A stretch of DNA of 64,000 nt from Aquificaceae bacterium. Lineage in GTDB: Bacteria > Aquificota > Aquificia > Aquificales > Aquificaceae. Shown piece by piece: positions 56,155-63,104 of the stretch (its first letter is position 1; each line of letters begins with the position of its first letter). Both the position numbers and the translations under genes were made by a program. The notes beneath the pieces were generated by a model. That model saw only the letters and a program-made list of their open reading frames with translations. It was not told the DNA's origin and did no database searches. Location: NCBI GenBank assembly GCA_041640635.1, contig JBEPZX010000002.1:61855-125854 (forward strand), in the 5' to 3' direction.

Positions 56155-58665
56155 TTAATTCCTCGTTTTATTTACTATATACTCTATCCATTTACGTATT
56201 TCTATAAGGAAAAAAGTAAGAAAAGGTATAATCATACCTATAGTTATGTGCTCCCAATTTAAAGGATGAACCCTAAAGAGGTCACTAAAGAGAAATATGG
56301 CTGAAAATTGCAAAACAACACCTATAGTTATTCCCATGTATATATAGGGGTTTATTGTAAAGCTTTTTACAAGATTTAATAAAAAGGGTTCTTCTCTTAA
56401 TGCTTGTATACCCATAAACCATTGAGAAACTACAGCATAGAAAAAGCTTATACTAAGTGCCGTTTGGTAAGGATATATCTGGTTTAGGTAATAAAAGAGG
56501 ATTACGGATGGTACTGCCATAACCAAGCCATTGTATATGACTTTTACTATTTGAGTTTTTCCAAATAATACCTGTTCTGGCCTTTTGGGCTTTTCCTTCA
56601 TTGGGTCTTTTTCTTCCCTTGTAAAAGGGAATGTTTTGTCTTGAACACCATCTGTTACTATGTTTATCCATAGAATATGCATAGGCAAAAGAGGAATTCT
56701 AAGATTTAGCAATACACAGGCTGACAGGTAAAAAACTTCGAAGATATTGGTTGTTAGCAAGTATTGAAGAGCCTTTGAGATGTTTTTAACTATAATCCTA
56801 CCTTGTCTTATACCTTCTACGATAACTGAAAGGTTGTTTTCTACAAGAATCATTTTGCTCGCTTCTTTTGCAGCCTCTGATCCTTCTCCCATGGCAATAC
56901 CAATATCAGCTGCTTTTAAAGCTGGCACATCATTAACACCATCCCCAGTAACGGCAACAATCTCACCGTAGCTCTGTAAAACTCTAACTATCCTAAACTT
57001 ATCTTCTGGTAAAGCTCTTGCTACAACGGAAACTCTCTTTAAAAGATTGTAAAGCTCACTATCGGAGTATTTGCTCAACTCTTTTCCTTCTATAGCTATA
57101 TCTCCATCTTTGTAAATGCCCACTTCGCGTGCTATAGCTATGGCTGTCAAAATATGGTCGCCCGTTATCATTATTATTCTTATGCCCGCACTTTTTGCTT
57201 TTTGTACCGCTTCCACTACCCCTTCTTTTGGTGGATCCTGAAAACCTATAAGACCAACAATGTTTACCTTTATTCCATCTAAAGCGTTTACTTCCTTTTC
57301 TAAAGGAGAATGGGCAAAGGCCAAAACTCTAAGCCCTTCCTTTGCCATATTTTCAGCAGTTTTTTGTATGTGCTCTAGTTCCTCTTTTGAGTTTTGAGAC
57401 ACCGCAACTATGGACTCTACAGCACCTTTTACGAAAAGTTCGTATTTTTCACCATTTTTATTGATAGTTGCCATTAATCTGGTTTTTGTATCGAAGGGAA
57501 ACTCCAAAATCCTCTTGTACGTTTCTCTAGTTCTTTCACAATCGAACTCCATGTCTGAAAGCCACTTTACCAAAGCCACTTCTAAAGGATCTCCTTTATC
57601 GTAAGTAGCATTGTTGCAAAGGCAGGCACAGAGTTTCAAAAGTTGTTCATCTTTTGCAAAGTAGTCTTTTACCTCAAGCTTTCCTTTTGTGATGGTTCCT
57701 GTTTTATCGGAACATATATATGTGGTGCTTCCTAAGGTTTCCGCTGCAGGTAAGTACTTTACCAGTACCTTTGACCTATAGAGATAGTAAGATCCTATTA
57801 CCAAAGTGAGTGTCAAAACTATAGGAAATCCTTCAGGCACAGCGGAAACGAGCTGAGCTACAACTACAAAGAACATATCTTTTATTTCTCTTTCCTGGTA
57901 TAAACCTACGAGAAAAACAAAAGTCAAAACGGAGATTAGCGTGGCTATCCATTTTTTAGAAAAGCTTCCTAAAGCTAGCGTTAAAGGTGTTTCTTGATGT
58001 ACCGATTTACTTATTTCAGCTATAGAACCTATATATGTGTTTTTGCCAGTGGCGAATACAACACCTTTACCCCTACCTTTAACAACAGTGGATCCCCTAT
58101 AAAGAATGTTAGATCTTTCGTATATAGGTGTATCTAACAATAAAACCGTGTTGTATTTCTCTACAGGCACACTTTCTCCTGTTAAAATGGACTCATCCAC
58201 TAATAATCCACTTGATTCCATAAGTCTAACATCAGCTGCTATCACATCTCCTTCTTCTACAAGTACAATGTCACCTGGCACTAAAAGAGCTGCGTCAATA
58301 TCCTCTACTTTCCCATCTCTCAATACGTTTACTTTCAAGGCGGTAAGTTTTTTCAGCGCTGATAATCGTCTAATAGCTCCCAGCTCATAAAAAAAACCTA
58401 TGATGGCATTTACTAACAAAATACCATATATGAAAATGGCATCTTTTTTGTCACCCAAAATCAAAGCTATTAAACCTGCAGCGGCAAGCACGTAAATAAA
58501 AACATTCTTAAATTGTCGTATAAAAATGCGTAAATAGCTTATTTCCTCCTCTTCTAAGGTATTGTAGCCATACTCTTTTAACCTTTTTTGAACTTCCTTT
58601 TCCAGAAGACCTTCTGGTGAAGTGGAAAAGGAGATTAGAACTTCTTCTATGGTTTTATGATGCAT
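56155..58665 (-). CDS. Cation-transporting P-type ATPase (P2A-like)
   Basis: TGES, PEGFP, DKTGT, KGA, MITGD, TGDGVND. Confidence 0.93.
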   Translation of the reverse strand: MHHKTIEEVLISFSTSPEGLLEKEVQKRLKEYGYNTLEEEEISYLRIFIRQFKNVFIYVLAAAGLIALILGDKKDAIFIYGILLVNAIIGFFYELGAIRRLSALKKLTALKVNVLRDGKVEDIDAALLVPGDIVLVEEGDVIAADVRLMESSGLLVDESILTGESVPVEKYNTVLLLDTPIYERSNILYRGSTVVKGRGKGVVFATGKNTYIGSIAEISKSVHQETPLTLALGSFSKKWIATLISVLTFVFLVGLYQEREIKDMFFVVVAQLVSAVPEGFPIVLTLTLVIGSYYLYRSKVLVKYLPAAETLGSTTYICSDKTGTITKGKLEVKDYFAKDEQLLKLCACLCNNATYDKGDPLEVALVKWLSDMEFDCERTRETYKRILEFPFDTKTRLMATINKNGEKYELFVKGAVESIVAVSQNSKEELEHIQKTAENMAKEGLRVLAFAHSPLEKEVNALDGIKVNIVGLIGFQDPPKEGVVEAVQKAKSAGIRIIMITGDHILTAIAIAREVGIYKDGDIAIEGKELSKYSDSELYNLLKRVSVVARALPEDKFRIVRVLQSYGEIVAVTGDGVNDVPALKAADIGIAMGEGSEAAKEASKMILVENNLSVIVEGIRQGRIIVKNISKALQYLLTTNIFEVFYLSACVLLNLRIPLLPMHILWINIVTDGVQDKTFPFTREEKDPMKEKPKRPEQVLFGKTQIVKVIYNGLVMAVPSVILFYYLNQIYPYQTALSISFFYAVVSQWFMGIQALREEPFLLNLVKSFTINPYIYMGITIGVVLQFSAIFLFSDLFRVHPLNWEHITIGMIIPFLTFFLIEIRKWIEYIVNKTRN

Positions 58666-58686
58666 GAAAGATATAATAATACAATT

Positions 58687-58998
58687 ATGAAGTATAGCAT
58701 TGAAAAATATAAAGACAAATTGGATGCACTAAAGGCTTATCTAACAGAGGCAGAAGCCATAAGTCCAGAAATAGAAGTAAAGTTGGTTTTACCCGGAGAA
58801 GAAGAGGCCGACCCCAATATAAAAGTTCCGTATCTTCTAGTTTGTTACTATGTAAACGAAGATAGATGTCATATACGTAAAATTGAGCTTTTTGAGTATT
58901 ATCTACAAGAGGACATTAAGGAACTCATCAATAAAATAACAGCTATGATAGAAGAGTTTGCAATGGAAGTAGATCAGAATGAATTCGGTGGGGGTTAG
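58687..58998 (+). CDS. Acidic hypothetical protein
   Basis: Clean ORF; ATG 58687 avoids overlap with the divergent ATPase. Confidence 0.7.
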   Translation: MKYSIEKYKDKLDALKAYLTEAEAISPEIEVKLVLPGEEEADPNIKVPYLLVCYYVNEDRCHIRKIELFEYYLQEDIKELINKITAMIEEFAMEVDQNEFGGG

Positions 58999-59050
58999 TT
59001 TAAAAATTAGATTATAATTATAGGTTTGTTAAAAACACAGGAGGTAAGAG

Positions 59051-59323
59051 ATGGCTTTGCCAAAGGAAAAAAAGCAGGAAATTATAACTAACTTTAGAAG
59101 ACATGAAAAGGATACGGGATCTTCTGAGGTACAGATAGCTATACTTACAGAGAAAATAAACAGATTAACTGAACACCTCAAAAAGCACAAAAAGGATGTG
59201 CACTCAAGAAGGGGCTTAATCGCCATGATTCACGCAAGAAGGAGACACCTGGAGTATCTAAAGGAGAGAGACTACAAAAGGTTTGTAGAGATTTCCCAGA
59301 AACTCGGTCTCAAGGTTAAGTAA
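59051..59323 (+). CDS. rpsO: 30S ribosomal protein S15
   Basis: [24 protein letters not shown]. Confidence 0.98.
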
Positions 59324-61401
59324 TGGAAAGAGCAGAGATATCTATAAACGACAAAGACCCAATAATCGTAGAGTTTGGGAAGTATGCTAAGCTAGCTGAC
59401 GGGTCAGTAGTTGTAAGACAGGGCGAAACGGCTGTTTTGGTGACGGCGGTTATGTCCGAGGAACCTCTAAGCGGTATAGATTTTATGCCTCTTTCTGTGG
59501 ACTACAGGGAACAGTCTTCCGCATGGGGTAAGATACCCGGGGGTTTTGTAAAGCGTGAAGGTAAGCCTACGGACAGAGAGGTCCTGGTATCCAGAGTAAT
59601 AGACAGACCTATTAGACCTCTTTTCCCTGAGGGCTTCTTTCATGAAGTAGCTGTAACAGCTCTTACGCTTTCGGCTGACGACAGGTACGATCCCGATGTT
59701 TTGGCAATTACCGGAGCTTCCTTTGCCCTGCATCTGTCGCGCATACCTTTTGAAGGTCCTATAGCGGGTGTAAGAGTCTGCAGAGTAGGTGGAGATTTTG
59801 TTTTGAATCCTACCTATGAAGAAAGACAGGTAGCTGATCTGGAACTCGTAGTTGCAGTTTCCAAAGACGCCATAGTTATGGTGGAAGGTGGTGCAAAGGA
59901 GGTAAGTGAAGAGGTCTTAGCCGATGCCCTTTACTTTGCATTGGATAAAGCACAGCCTCTCATATCCGCTCAAGAGGGGTTAAGGACCAAGATAGGCACG
60001 GAAAAGTTCAGTTACGAACCTATAAACTTACCGGAGGAGCTTTACCATGAGCTAAGAGAATACGCAGTGCCACGCATAGAGGAAGCCTACAACATTTTGG
60101 ACAAAAGGCAAAGAAAGGACACGCTAAAATCCATACTAAAGGACTTTCTCAACAACCACCAAGTCTCAGAAGAATACCACTTTGCTATAGAGTATTACTT
60201 TAAGAAATTAAACAGTGAACTTCTGAGAAAAGCTGTTTTAGACAAAGGAGTAAGGATAGATGGAAGAGGTCCAAAGGATATAAGACCTATAAGTATAGAG
60301 GTTCATCCCTTTGAGAGACCTCACGGAAGTGCTATCTTTACCAGAGGTCAAACGCAGGCTTTTGCAACGGCAACACTCGGATCGCCAGAGGAAGCCCAAC
60401 TTGTGGAAAGTATATACCAAGGTGAAACCTTTAAAAAGTTCATGCTTCATTATAACTTCCCTCCTTTCTCCACAGGCGAAGCCAAATCCTGGGGTCCACC
60501 AAAAAGACGCGAAATTGGTCACGGTGCTTTAGCAGAAAGGGCTATAGAACCTTTAATTCCTTCGGATGAAGATTTTCCTTACATTGTCAGGGTAGTTTCT
60601 AACATCTTAGAATCCAACGGTTCCACTTCCATGGCTACCGTATGCGCAGCATCGTTGGCGCTCTTTGATGCTGGTGTTCCTATGAAAAAGCACGTGGCGG
60701 GAATAGCCATGGGTCTAATAATGGAAGGTGACAGATACGTGATACTTTCCGACATTCTCGGAGACGAAGACCAGCTTGGGGACATGGATTTTAAGGTCGC
60801 AGGAACAAAGGATGGAATAACAAGCGTTCAGATGGACATAAAGATAAAAGGGCTTAAAAAAGAAATTATGAGACAAGCTTTGCAACAAGCTAGAGAAGGA
60901 AGGCTTTACATACTGGAAAAAATGTACCAGGCTATAACAGAACCTAGAAGAGAATTATCCCCATACGCTCCTAGAATAGAGATAATAACAGTTCCCGAAG
61001 ATAAGGCTACACTCATTATAGGACCTTCGGGTAAAACAGCAAAGGAAATAAAAGAAAAAACAGGTGTGTCTGTTTGGGTTTTGGAAGGTGGAAAAGTTTC
61101 GCTTACAGCCCCTAACAAGGAGCAAATAGAGAAGGCAAAAGAAATGATACACAACATTGTAGCCGAGTTAGAACTTGGCAAAGTATACGAAGGTAAAATA
61201 ACCAGAGTAGAACCTTACGGAGTCTTTGTAGAAGTTTTGCCTAACAAGATAGGACTTTTGCACGTTTCCAAAATGGCAGGCTACATAAAGGATGTTAAAT
61301 CTAGATTCAGCGTAGGAGACTCTATAAGGGTAAAGGTAGTAGAGATCGACGACCAAGGAAGACCAAAGTTTACCAATATAGGTATCGATCAGCCGGCGTA
61401 G
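59323..61401 (+). CDS. pnp: Polyribonucleotide nucleotidyltransferase (PNPase)
   Basis: Two RNase PH domains (IDRPIRPLFP, RREIGHG, ESNGSTSMA, DMDFKVAGT), KH and S1 domains. Confidence 0.98.
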   Translation: MERAEISINDKDPIIVEFGKYAKLADGSVVVRQGETAVLVTAVMSEEPLSGIDFMPLSVDYREQSSAWGKIPGGFVKREGKPTDREVLVSRVIDRPIRPLFPEGFFHEVAVTALTLSADDRYDPDVLAITGASFALHLSRIPFEGPIAGVRVCRVGGDFVLNPTYEERQVADLELVVAVSKDAIVMVEGGAKEVSEEVLADALYFALDKAQPLISAQEGLRTKIGTEKFSYEPINLPEELYHELREYAVPRIEEAYNILDKRQRKDTLKSILKDFLNNHQVSEEYHFAIEYYFKKLNSELLRKAVLDKGVRIDGRGPKDIRPISIEVHPFERPHGSAIFTRGQTQAFATATLGSPEEAQLVESIYQGETFKKFMLHYNFPPFSTGEAKSWGPPKRREIGHGALAERAIEPLIPSDEDFPYIVRVVSNILESNGSTSMATVCAASLALFDAGVPMKKHVAGIAMGLIMEGDRYVILSDILGDEDQLGDMDFKVAGTKDGITSVQMDIKIKGLKKEIMRQALQQAREGRLYILEKMYQAITEPRRELSPYAPRIEIITVPEDKATLIIGPSGKTAKEIKEKTGVSVWVLEGGKVSLTAPNKEQIEKAKEMIHNIVAELELGKVYEGKITRVEPYGVFVEVLPNKIGLLHVSKMAGYIKDVKSRFSVGDSIRVKVVEIDDQGRPKFTNIGIDQPA

Positions 61402-61463
61402 CTCAGAGGCAGAGCGAGGCACTCGTAATGCCTAGGTCGTGGGTTCAAGTCCCACCGCCGGCT
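61392..61463 (+). tRNA. tRNA-Thr(CGT)
   Basis: GCCGGCG/CGCCGGC acceptor stem, anticodon arm AGGCA-CTCGTAA-TGCCT, T arm GTGGG-TTCAAGT-CCCAC; CCA not encoded. Confidence 0.97.
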
Positions 61464-61476
61464 TTGTGAGGAAAAA

Positions 61477-61917
61477 ATGAAGGTAAAAATTAAAAGGTTA
61501 CCGCATGCCAATGGTTTAGATCTGCCTTTTTACTCCACATCTCATGCTGTAGGAATGGACTTGTTAGCAGCTATTGAGTCGCCTATTACAATAAAACCTC
61601 TTCAGAGGGTGATAGTTCCTACAGGTATATGTGTAGAGATTCCGGAAGGTTTTGAACTTCAGGTAAGACCCAGAAGCGGCTTAGCCATAAGGCATGGCAT
61701 AACGGTTTTGAATACACCAGGCACTATCGACCCAGACTATAGAGGGGAAATAAAAGTTATTTTAATAAATCTTGGAGAGGAAGACTTTACTATAAAAAGG
61801 GGAGACAGGATAGCCCAGATGGTTTTGTGTCCAGTAGTAAGGTTTGAATGGGAAGAGGTAGACGAGCTGAGCACAACTCTAAGAGGTGAAGGTGGTTTTG
61901 GATCTACTGGGTTATAA
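61477..61917 (+). CDS. dut: dUTP diphosphatase
   Basis: [34 protein letters not shown]. Confidence 0.97.
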
Positions 61918-61925
61918 TATACACA

Positions 61926-63104
61926 ATGCATGATTTATTCCTTGCTTTAGCTATAATCCTATTTAGTGCAAGAATAGTAGGTGACTTTTTCGCTAGAGTA
62001 GGCCTCCCAGCTGTATTGGGTGAAATATTTGTAGGTATATTGCTCGGTCAAAGTGCCTTAGGTTTAATAAGCCCTAACGATATCCTAAAGGTACTTGCAG
62101 AACTTGGAGTTATACTACTACTTTTTAAAGTAGGACTAGAAGCTGATATAAAGCAACTAAAAAGTGTAGGAATTCCTGCTTTCATAGTAGCTATTGTAGG
62201 TGCATCAGCTCCAATGGTTTTAGGATTTTTGGTTTCTCACTACCTATTGGGATATTCTATTACTGTATCTCTCTTCATAGGTGGTACGCTTACGGCTACA
62301 AGTATAGGTATCACTGTAGGTGTCTTAGAGAGTATGGGAAAGCTCAAGGAGAGGTTTGCTCAAATTGTTTTAGGTGCCGCTGTTTTGGATGATATTTTTG
62401 GTGTTATTGTACTTACCGCTTTGGCTCAGTTTGCTAGAGAAGGCAAAGTAAACGTAAATGCTATAACTTTACTCTTTCTATACATAGCTATCTTCTTTAT
62501 ACTTGCCCCTCTCTTGGCTCAAACTATGGCTAAACTAATACAAGTAATATCCAAAGCTGTTAGGACCGAGGATTTTATACCACCCGTGGTGGTAGCTGTA
62601 GTTTTCTTCTTTGCTTATCTGTCTCATGTGTTTCATGTAGAAGCTATACTGGGTGCCTTTACAGCGGGTTTGGCTCTCTCTAGACGTTTTGTTCTACCTT
62701 TTGCGGTGTTTTTGAGAACAGATGAAAAAATGGCAGAAAAGGTTGAACACACTATATTGCCGTTGGTGTGGGTGTTGACTCCCATATTCTTTGTGTATGT
62801 AGGACTCCAACTTAACCTAAAGGCGATAGACTTTACTGACTCTAAGTTTTGGATAACCTCTTCCCTTATCTTAGTGGTAGCATTTATAAGCAAAATAATC
62901 TCGGGATTTTTTGTGTCCAAAAACACAAAAGAGGCTCTACTAATAGGTTTTTCCATGCTTCCACGTGGAGAGGTAGGTTTAATATTTGCAGAGGTAGGGA
63001 GACAAACCAACATATACGATGATTTTCTTTACGCCGTGATTATATTTGTTGTTGCAATAACTACACTTGCCGCACCAATATTTCTTAAACTTCTCGCTAA
63101 ATGA
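61926..63104 (+). CDS. Cation:proton antiporter (CPA2, NapA-like)
   Basis: LFKVGLE, ATSIGIT, AVLDD, MLPRGEVG. Confidence 0.9.
   Translation: MHDLFLALAIILFSARIVGDFFARVGLPAVLGEIFVGILLGQSALGLISPNDILKVLAELGVILLLFKVGLEADIKQLKSVGIPAFIVAIVGASAPMVLGFLVSHYLLGYSITVSLFIGGTLTATSIGITVGVLESMGKLKERFAQIVLGAAVLDDIFGVIVLTALAQFAREGKVNVNAITLLFLYIAIFFILAPLLAQTMAKLIQVISKAVRTEDFIPPVVVAVVFFFAYLSHVFHVEAILGAFTAGLALSRRFVLPFAVFLRTDEKMAEKVEHTILPLVWVLTPIFFVYVGLQLNLKAIDFTDSKFWITSSLILVVAFISKIISGFFVSKNTKEALLIGFSMLPRGEVGLIFAEVGRQTNIYDDFLYAVIIFVVAITTLAAPIFLKLLAK

What the first reader, a model, noticed from the sequence alone, without database searches (positions are those of the whole stretch)
61380..61476. PNPase stop codon lies inside tRNA-Thr, so tRNA maturation should create a non-stop pnp mRNA
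Seen: pnp ends GAT CAG CCG GCG TAG (stop 61399-61401) while the tRNA starts at 61392. The last 10 nt of the CDS are tRNA positions 1-10 and the stop is the conserved U8-A9-G10. No earlier in-frame stop exists. Known: RNase P (protein-only HARP in Aquificaceae) cuts at tRNA +1, and stop-less mRNAs are rescued by tmRNA-SmpB, which tags the protein for degradation. Inference: each rpsO-pnp-tRNA-dut transcript yields either intact pnp message or mature tRNA, and terminating ribosomes would unfold the acceptor stem. This could be a feedback linking tRNA processing, trans-translation and the level of the main 3'-5' exoribonuclease.
Basis: partly seen in the sequence, partly recalled or inferred. Interest (0 to 1): 0.8.

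Follow-up and report, generated by a model that had tools for sequence, protein, structure and literature searches.

The report
PNPase gene ends inside a tRNA
The gene for this hot-spring bacterium's main RNA-degrading enzyme borrows its stop codon from the first bases of the next tRNA gene, so cutting out the tRNA should leave a message without a stop; this is real and inherited across a whole group of relatives, but it looks like tolerated tight gene packing of a kind described in 2014, and a control loop is untested.

Summary
Confirmed: pnp (59323-61401) stops on U8-A9-G10 of tRNA-Thr(CGU), whose +1 is 61392. It is no sequencing error: all 33 distinct pnp-tRNA loci form one Aquificaceae clade, and all 33 stop inside the tRNA, in three frames. 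The tRNA is single-copy and conserved, and keeps the A(-1) that HARP favours in 34 of 36 loci. It lacks the nearby -10 box that most family tRNAs carry (0 of 36), so it probably comes from the rpsO-pnp transcript. HARP, tmRNA, SmpB and ClpX are present. A non-stop pnp fragment is therefore likely but unobserved; no RNA run was listed. PNPase-specific feedback has no support: 5 of 38 tRNAs here trap unrelated genes' stops; one relative fuses the same tRNA to pyrG; and the absence of upstream stop gains fits drift. The class is published (Hudson 2014; Mukai 2021), and this scan found it before on other DNA. Best reading: a tolerated rearrangement in which tRNA release ends the pnp message. New member of a known kind.

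The parts
59013..59018 (+). -10 box (TATAAT) upstream of rpsO; the only conserved promoter-like site upstream of the tRNA
   Evidence: Family-trained -10 matrix scores 10.7 here; a matching site lies 2359-2395 nt upstream of tRNA +1 in 31 of 32 long-enough loci. Prediction only.
59051..59323 (+). rpsO (ribosomal protein S15); its TAA overlaps the pnp ATG, so there is no intergenic leader
59323..61401 (+). pnp, polynucleotide phosphorylase, 692 aa, one S1 domain (residues 616-680); last 10 nt lie inside the tRNA
61194..61199 (+). -10-like TAAAAT inside pnp, 192 nt before tRNA +1; candidate internal tRNA promoter, not conserved
   Evidence: Score 8.9; present in 3 of 33 loci; no -35-like hexamer at 16-18 nt spacing in the sequence
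61391..61392 (+). Predicted HARP cleavage site, A(-1)/G(+1)
   Evidence: A at -1 in 34 of 36 linked loci; HARP preference for A(-1) from PMC12439589. The cut itself is inferred.
61392..61464 (+). tRNA-Thr(CGU), single copy in the assembly, no encoded CCA
   Evidence: 67 of 73 positions invariant in 32 linked loci
61399..61401 (+). TAG stop of pnp = tRNA U8-A9-G10
61468..61472 (+). Shine-Dalgarno-like GAGGA of dut, 4 nt after tRNA position 73
   Evidence: Sequence; a purine-rich stretch starts at or just after position 74 in most relatives
61477..61917 (+). dut, dUTPase

Best explanation
A single ancient rearrangement put the tRNA-Thr(CGU) gene at the end of a shortened pnp, at the linker where two-S1 relatives continue into a second S1 domain. 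The tRNA lost its own promoter and pnp took the first stop available, the conserved U8-A9-G10 (shown by comparison; the order of events is inferred). The tRNA is now made from the rpsO-pnp-tRNA-dut transcript (inferred). While ribosomes terminate on the tRNA's first bases they should hold the acceptor stem open. Between ribosomes, or once translation wanes, the cloverleaf folds and HARP cuts at 61391/61392. That cut ends the useful life of the pnp message. Ribosomes already on it stall after Asp689, are rescued by tmRNA-SmpB, and release a nearly full-length, tagged PNPase for proteolysis (all inferred). One transcript thus serves first as mRNA and then as pre-tRNA. The cost is small, so the arrangement is tolerated; it is an ordinary decay step and not a dedicated control loop.
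For: One clade, support 97, 33 of 33 overlapping. The junction matches the linker after S1-1 in two-S1 PNPases. The overlap length is free to drift (1, 10, 21, 44, 45 nt; three frames). The -10 box is absent in 36 of 36 linked loci (median -7.7, coding background -5.7) but present in 100 of 141 non-tandem family tRNAs and in 10 of 12 stand-alone Aquificota copies of this tRNA. The tRNA is under selection: 67 of 73 positions invariant, against 1 of 60 invariant third codon positions just upstream. The same stop trap acts on unrelated genes: 5 of 38 tRNAs in G000, ispE in 19 of 19 tRNA-adjacent f1 loci, pyrG on this same tRNA in L053. Upstream stop gains: 0 observed, about 0.9 expected under drift. 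HARP of H. thermophilus cut native substrates at about 0.3-0.6 per min in vitro at 37 C, which is slow enough to allow translation first (weak, far below growth temperature).
Against: No RNA ends, ribosome data or tagged peptides were seen. The drift test has almost no power, so selection for the overlap is not excluded. No lineage of 33 has escaped the overlap, although 12 of 26 main-frame loci are one base change from an upstream stop; this fits tolerance but also benefit. This genome has a -10-like site 192 nt upstream of the tRNA that could supply the tRNA separately. The promoter scan is a -10 matrix only and would miss other sigma factors.
Confidence: 0.62

Rival explanations
1. Selected control loop: HARP cleavage sets the lifetime of the pnp message and trans-translation caps the PNPase level. 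With no RNase Z, PNPase may help expose the tRNA 3' end and so speed the cut in its own message (negative feedback), standing in for the RNase III leader of E. coli.
For: 33 of 33 retain the overlap through at least three frame changes, and the single stop gain (L032) still needs tRNA G+1. No conserved tRNA promoter. rpsO and pnp abut, leaving no room for the E. coli-type leader (E. coli mechanism from PMC5029454 passages). No full-length RNase Z match in 13 of 13 f1 genomes; RNase PH and RNase E/G are present. The cut lies past the S1 domain, so the tagged protein would be almost complete.
Against: The leader is also missing in lineages without the tRNA, so the two traits are not linked. The same overlap occurs on ispE, pyrF, a GcvH-family gene and pyrG. 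A frameshift within six codons of the tRNA would read into it by default. No excess conservation over drift. No step in which PNPase senses its own level is shown.
Confidence: 0.15
2. The tRNA comes mainly from an untranslated transcript that starts inside pnp, and full-length pnp mRNA is rarely cut because ribosomes shield the site, so non-stop pnp mRNA is negligible.
For: -10-like site at 61194-61199 here and in 2 other loci; a weak site (5.2-5.4) about 1830-1875 nt upstream in 14 of 33 loci. Most family tRNAs have their own -10 box, often inside the upstream gene. ispE-tRNA-Gln shows a shared internal -10 site at 219-253 nt in 13 of 18 f1 loci.
Against: No strong internal site is shared across pnp loci, whereas the same scan does find the shared ispE site and the rpsO promoter. 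Both pnp-internal sites coincide with G-K-I codons.
Confidence: 0.18
3. The overlap is a consequence of protein-only RNase P: HARP-only lineages tolerate or use tRNA-embedded stops and lineages with RNA-based RNase P do not.
For: The ispE stop lies inside tRNA-Gln in 19 of 19 tRNA-adjacent f1 loci (HARP-only) and before it in 8 of 8 f3 loci (RNA-type RNase P).
Against: Family f2 is also HARP-only (7 of 8 HARP, 0 of 8 RNase P RNA), yet its ispE stops before the tRNA in 6 of 6. G028, which has RNase P RNA, has 2 overlaps among 40 tRNAs.
Confidence: 0.04
4. Sequencing or assembly error, or a recent stop-loss in this genome.
For: None found.
Against: Same arrangement in 33 of 33 distinct loci, including isolate genomes of Hydrogenobacter (L037, L072).
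Confidence: 0.01

Closest known systems
Same-strand CDS/t(m)RNA overlaps predicted to give non-stop mRNAs (Hudson, Lau and Williams 2014, PMC4131195; abstract, passages and the section on overlaps read; supplements not available)
   Same: Upstream CDS ends inside a tRNA; predicted non-stop mRNA; the same tRNA affected across a group of close relatives. They count 250 upstream and 23 spanning cases among 115,660 valid t(m)RNAs.
   Different: The main text has 0 hits for Aquif-, pnp, Hydrogenobacter or Thermocrinis. Their rate is about 0.24% of t(m)RNAs; here it is 5 of 38 in G000 and 3 of 44, 3 of 44, 1 of 41 and 2 of 40 credible cases in four relatives. They did not examine promoters.
smpB-ssrA overlap in Carsonella (same paper)
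   Same: A feedback through maturation-induced non-stop mRNA was proposed for a gene of RNA and ribosome quality control.
   Different: There the RNA is tmRNA and the overlap is in half of the strains of an endosymbiont; here it is a tRNA, fixed in a free-living clade, and PNPase is not part of the rescue machine.
selB-selC nesting or partial overlap (Mukai 2021, PMC8124441; parts 1 and 2 of 3 read, the whole main text)
   Same: Identical proposed logic: tRNA processing makes a non-stop mRNA, so protein and tRNA are alternatives. Bioinformatic only.
   Different: SelB binds that very tRNA, which gives a direct rationale; close relatives there often regained a stop before the tRNA, whereas 0 of 33 did here.
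arfA control by RNase III-made non-stop mRNA and tmRNA tagging in E. coli (cited in PMC4131195; details recalled)
   Same: Programmed endonucleolytic removal of the stop codon, tagging and proteolysis set the protein level.
   Different: arfA is a tested loop that senses trans-translation; here the nuclease would be HARP, the signal a real tRNA, and nothing is tested.
E. coli rpsO-pnp autoregulation (PMC5029454, passages)
   Same: rpsO-pnp operon in which an endonuclease cut would limit the pnp message.
   Different: E. coli uses a terminator, a second promoter and an RNase III stem-loop in the 5' leader; here rpsO and pnp overlap by one base and the candidate cut is at the 3' end.

Membership tests
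CDS/tRNA overlap predicted to give non-stop mRNA (Hudson 2014 class) | Valid tRNA gene | tested here: met
   ARAGORN; acceptor and T stems fold; orthologous copies score 70-72 bits on Rfam RF00005; strong conservation
CDS/tRNA overlap predicted to give non-stop mRNA (Hudson 2014 class) | Pfam-positive CDS upstream on the same strand, stop codon inside the mature tRNA | tested here: met
CDS/tRNA overlap predicted to give non-stop mRNA (Hudson 2014 class) | CDS and tRNA on one transcript that RNase P cuts | tested here: inconclusive
   No proximal -10 in 36 of 36 loci and a shared rpsO promoter; HARP present; no RNA run listed
Programmed non-stop regulation (arfA type) | Trans-translation and tag-directed protease present | tested here: met
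   tmRNA with a tag frame ending PEADLALAA, SmpB, ClpX
Programmed non-stop regulation (arfA type) | Non-stop mRNA and tagged protein seen in vivo | not testable with these tools
   No RNA run listed; no proteomics tool
Programmed non-stop regulation (arfA type) | Overlap maintained by selection and specific to the regulated gene | tested here: inconclusive
   0 upstream stop gains against about 0.9 expected (no power); not specific to pnp
Programmed non-stop regulation (arfA type) | Protein level responds to the pathway (feedback) | not testable with these tools
   Needs genetics
E. coli-type pnp autoregulation | rpsO-pnp intergenic leader with an RNase III stem-loop | tested here: not met
   rpsO stop overlaps the pnp start

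The most novel reading that the evidence does not exclude
In the Hydrogenobacter-Thermocrinis clade the only tRNA-Thr(CGU) is cut out of the pnp message by HARP, and this cut is the main timer of PNPase synthesis. It yields almost full-length PNPase with an SsrA degron, and PNPase's own 3'-trimming of the precursor (no RNase Z) speeds the cut. That would be an autoregulatory loop built from tRNA maturation and trans-translation in place of the RNase III leader.
Probability: 0.12. Interest if true: 0.75.

Novelty: new member of a known kind. Interest (0 to 1): 0.4.

Why it matters
The 2014 and 2021 predictions that tRNA maturation makes non-stop mRNAs appear untested in the papers read here. 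This locus is a clean test case: a housekeeping gene, a single-copy tRNA with no nearby promoter, a fixed overlap in a free-living clade with isolate genomes, and a biochemically studied HARP from the same genus. If the cut limits PNPase, it would link tRNA processing, ribosome rescue and RNA decay. If not, it shows that bacteria tolerate routine non-stop messages from core genes. The family's overlap rate also looks well above the bacterial average.

Tried and rejected
RNA evidence: no RNA run was listed for 58900-62000, so no reads were laid; this is no evidence either way. Link between overlap and protein-only RNase P: rejected, because HARP-only family f2 keeps the ispE stop upstream in 6 of 6. 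tRNA dispensable in the family: my interim idea was wrong; all 19 f1 genomes have a tRNA-Thr(CGT). The tRNA as replacement for the missing RNase III leader: the leader is also missing without the tRNA. Selection test on stop gains: no power. A pattern search was badly designed and found 0 of 6; not used. The generic promoter and terminator scan found no site near the tRNA and is barely above shuffles, 8 against 5.3. The minimum-energy fold recovers the acceptor and T stems but not the unmodified cloverleaf. The Fisher test used 9 of 12 by a miscount (the rows give 10 of 12), and kin are not independent, so no p-value is relied on. Dropped rows: 4 duplicate proteins and loci with under 400 aligned residues; 3 non-Aquificota tRNAs in the stand-alone count; 4 overlaps judged shadow or unsupported ORFs (G012 Phe and Val, G010 Met, G014 Leu). 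The careful tree did not finish; the quick tree is used. Literature: six searches showed no paper on a pnp-tRNA overlap in their listings; subscription journals are mostly not covered, and the supplement of PMC4131195 could not be seen and may list this case. A recalled co-purification of PNPase with Aquifex RNase P activity was not confirmed in the passages read and is not used.

Full report
Observation. The pnp ORF runs 59323-61401 (692 aa) and ends GAT CAG CCG GCG TAG. It passes the curated PNPase cut-offs and has one S1 domain ending at residue 680. ARAGORN finds tRNA-Thr(CGT) at 61391-61464. The 7-bp acceptor stem begins at 61392, so the stop is U8-A9-G10. rpsO overlaps the pnp start by one base, and dut follows at 61477.

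Conservation. Of 30 PNPase loci from relatives, 8 have this tRNA adjacent and all 8 stop inside it; 22 have no adjacent tRNA. A scan of named genomes for the tRNA gave 50 loci: 32 with pnp upstream, all stopping in the tRNA; 3 too short to judge; 15 elsewhere. The named records are mostly Aquificaceae (Hydrogenobacter, Thermocrinis, Ca. Pampinifervens), which places the window's family. In a quick tree of 55 distinct PNPases the 33 linked ones form one clade (support 97), with stops at tRNA positions 8-10 (26), 42-44 (4), 43-45 (1), 19-21 (1) and -2..+1 (1). Relatives with a second S1 domain continue through the same linker sequence at which the linked proteins enter the tRNA, and those genomes keep the tRNA elsewhere. 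One rearrangement followed by drift in frame is the simplest history (inference).

Is the tRNA made, and from which transcript? It is the only Thr(CGT) gene among 38 tRNAs in the 98% complete assembly. All 19 family-f1 genomes searched have one. In 32 linked loci 67 of 73 positions are invariant, against 1 of 60 third codon positions just upstream. A at -1 is kept in 34 of 36 loci across frames, and HARP cuts better after an A (PMC12439589; abstract and first part of the discussion read). In four family genomes 100 of 141 non-tandem tRNAs have a TAWAAT box 9-20 nt upstream. With a matrix built from these, 0 of 36 pnp-linked copies score above 6 (median -7.7; coding background -5.7), against 10 of 12 stand-alone Aquificota copies and 6 of 10 in a partly overlapping set of f1 genomes. 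Scanning the whole region, the only strong shared site is in front of rpsO (31 of 32 long-enough loci; 59013-59018 here). The same scan finds a shared internal site in ispE upstream of tRNA-Gln in 13 of 18 loci, a rough positive control. Against this: the window has a -10-like site at 61194-61199 (3 of 33 loci), and a weak site near the pnp 5' end occurs in 14 of 33. Co-transcription from the rpsO promoter is likely but only predicted.

Machinery. No RNase P RNA was found in G000 or in 24 f1 genomes, and HARP is in all of them. tmRNA, SmpB and ClpX are present; only two release-factor-domain genes were found, so no ArfB. RNase PH and RNase E/G are present; no full-length RNase Z match was found in 13 f1 genomes. 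Since the dut ribosome-binding site starts right after the tRNA, release of the tRNA probably damages both neighbouring messages (inference). A cut at +1 leaves RNA ending after the Asp689 codon plus two bases, so the tagged protein would lack only three residues. HARP is proposed to read the tRNA elbow and cleavage site (PMC8266387 passages), so a terminating ribosome should block it for a time (inference from general ribosome footprint size). H. thermophilus HARP was indifferent to leaders of 5-22 nt and cut at 0.58 per min in vitro (PMC10652100 passages); long translated leaders were not tested there.

Is it special to PNPase? No. In G000, 5 of 38 tRNAs contain the stop of an upstream ORF: pnp, ispE, an OMP decarboxylase (pyrF), a GcvH-family gene and a SpoVG-like ORF below the Pfam cut-off. 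Credible counts in relatives are 3 of 44, 3 of 44, 1 of 41 and 2 of 40. ispE ends in or beyond tRNA-Gln in 19 of 19 tRNA-adjacent f1 loci (5 further f1 loci have no adjacent tRNA) but before it in 8 of 8 f3 and 6 of 6 f2 loci. In L053 the stand-alone type of tRNA-Thr(CGU) traps the stop of CTP synthase at the same U8-A9-G10. Many other genes end 0-40 nt before a tRNA. U8-A9-G10 is a generic stop trap in tightly packed genomes. Parsimony on 26 main-frame loci gives about 0.9 expected stop gains upstream of the straddling codon and 0 observed; at the straddling codon about 2 expected and 1 observed. This neither shows nor excludes selection. It does suggest the overlap costs little, since 12 of 26 loci are one change from an upstream stop.

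How it most likely works. Shown: the geometry, its single origin, the tRNA's conservation, the missing proximal promoter and the enzymes. Inferred: co-transcription, a HARP cut after or between rounds of translation, rescue of trailing ribosomes by tmRNA, and decay of the upstream fragment. On this reading tRNA release is the last act of the pnp message and not a switch (confidence 0.62). Rivals: an internal promoter makes the question moot (0.18); a selected feedback on PNPase (0.15); an effect of HARP as such (0.04, contradicted by f2); error (0.01).

Known and new. Hudson, Lau and Williams 2014 defined this class, counted 250 upstream and 23 spanning overlaps among 115,660 t(m)RNAs, and proposed feedback for smpB-ssrA. 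Mukai 2021 proposed the same either/or model for selB-selC. Earlier notes of this scan on other genomes pointed me to the 2014 paper and mostly concluded tight packing; a look-up for similar stretches found nothing. The pnp case is not named in the 2014 main text and did not appear in six literature searches; its supplement could not be seen. PMC4227106 (passages only) and PMC11740979 (passages) showed nothing on this overlap. What this locus adds: fixation in a free-living clade in three frames, loss of the tRNA's own promoter, and a family-wide overlap rate well above the published average.

Verdict. Observation confirmed; interpretation partly supported; new member of a known kind; interest 0.4. 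The bold reading, PNPase autoregulation through tRNA maturation and trans-translation, is not excluded (probability 0.12, interest 0.75 if true).

Noticed in passing
G000:C4:38875-39753 and loci L271-L300, L306-L313: ispE ends inside the sole tRNA-Gln(UUG) in 19 of 19 tRNA-adjacent f1 loci; in two (L275, L276) the ORF spans the whole tRNA, as selB-selC does. A shared -10-like site lies 219-253 nt upstream inside ispE.
   Followed up: partly
G000:C4:68869-69549, C6:2972-3223, C19:8789-9310: pyrF, a SpoVG-like ORF and a GcvH-family gene also take their stops from tRNA-Val(CAC), tRNA-Arg(CCG) and tRNA-Sec (last base only).
   Followed up: partly
L053:1392-2987: CTP synthase ends on U8-A9-G10 of tRNA-Thr(CGU): an independent repeat of the pnp geometry with another gene.
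   Followed up: partly
L008, L011-L015, L019: PNPase with two tandem S1 domains (about 760-775 aa) in several Aquificaceae lineages; the pnp-tRNA clade and L009/L010 have one.
   Followed up: no
G000:C1:22620-22966: ARAGORN's tmRNA tag call looks wrong; the preceding frame ends PEADLALAA-stop, a canonical tag.
   Followed up: partly
G000:C3:80829-86425: The HARP gene lies on the same strand in a tightly packed run downstream of a ClpP-like ORF (named by eye) and clpX.
   Followed up: no
No full-length RNase Z match in 13 f1 genomes, while 4 of 4 f2 genomes have a near-full-length match just under the cut-off; most f1 tRNAs seen lack an encoded CCA.
   Followed up: partly
L076: A record labelled Acidobacteria carries this locus nested inside the Aquificaceae clade; probably a mis-binned contig.
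   Followed up: no
window 58657-58998: 113-aa ORF upstream of rpsO with no NCBIfam match; a -10-like site precedes it in many relatives.
   Followed up: no
window 61399-61428: The pnp stop is TAG followed by C; read-through would add nine residues and stop at TAA in the anticodon loop region, so no fusion to dut is possible.
   Followed up: no
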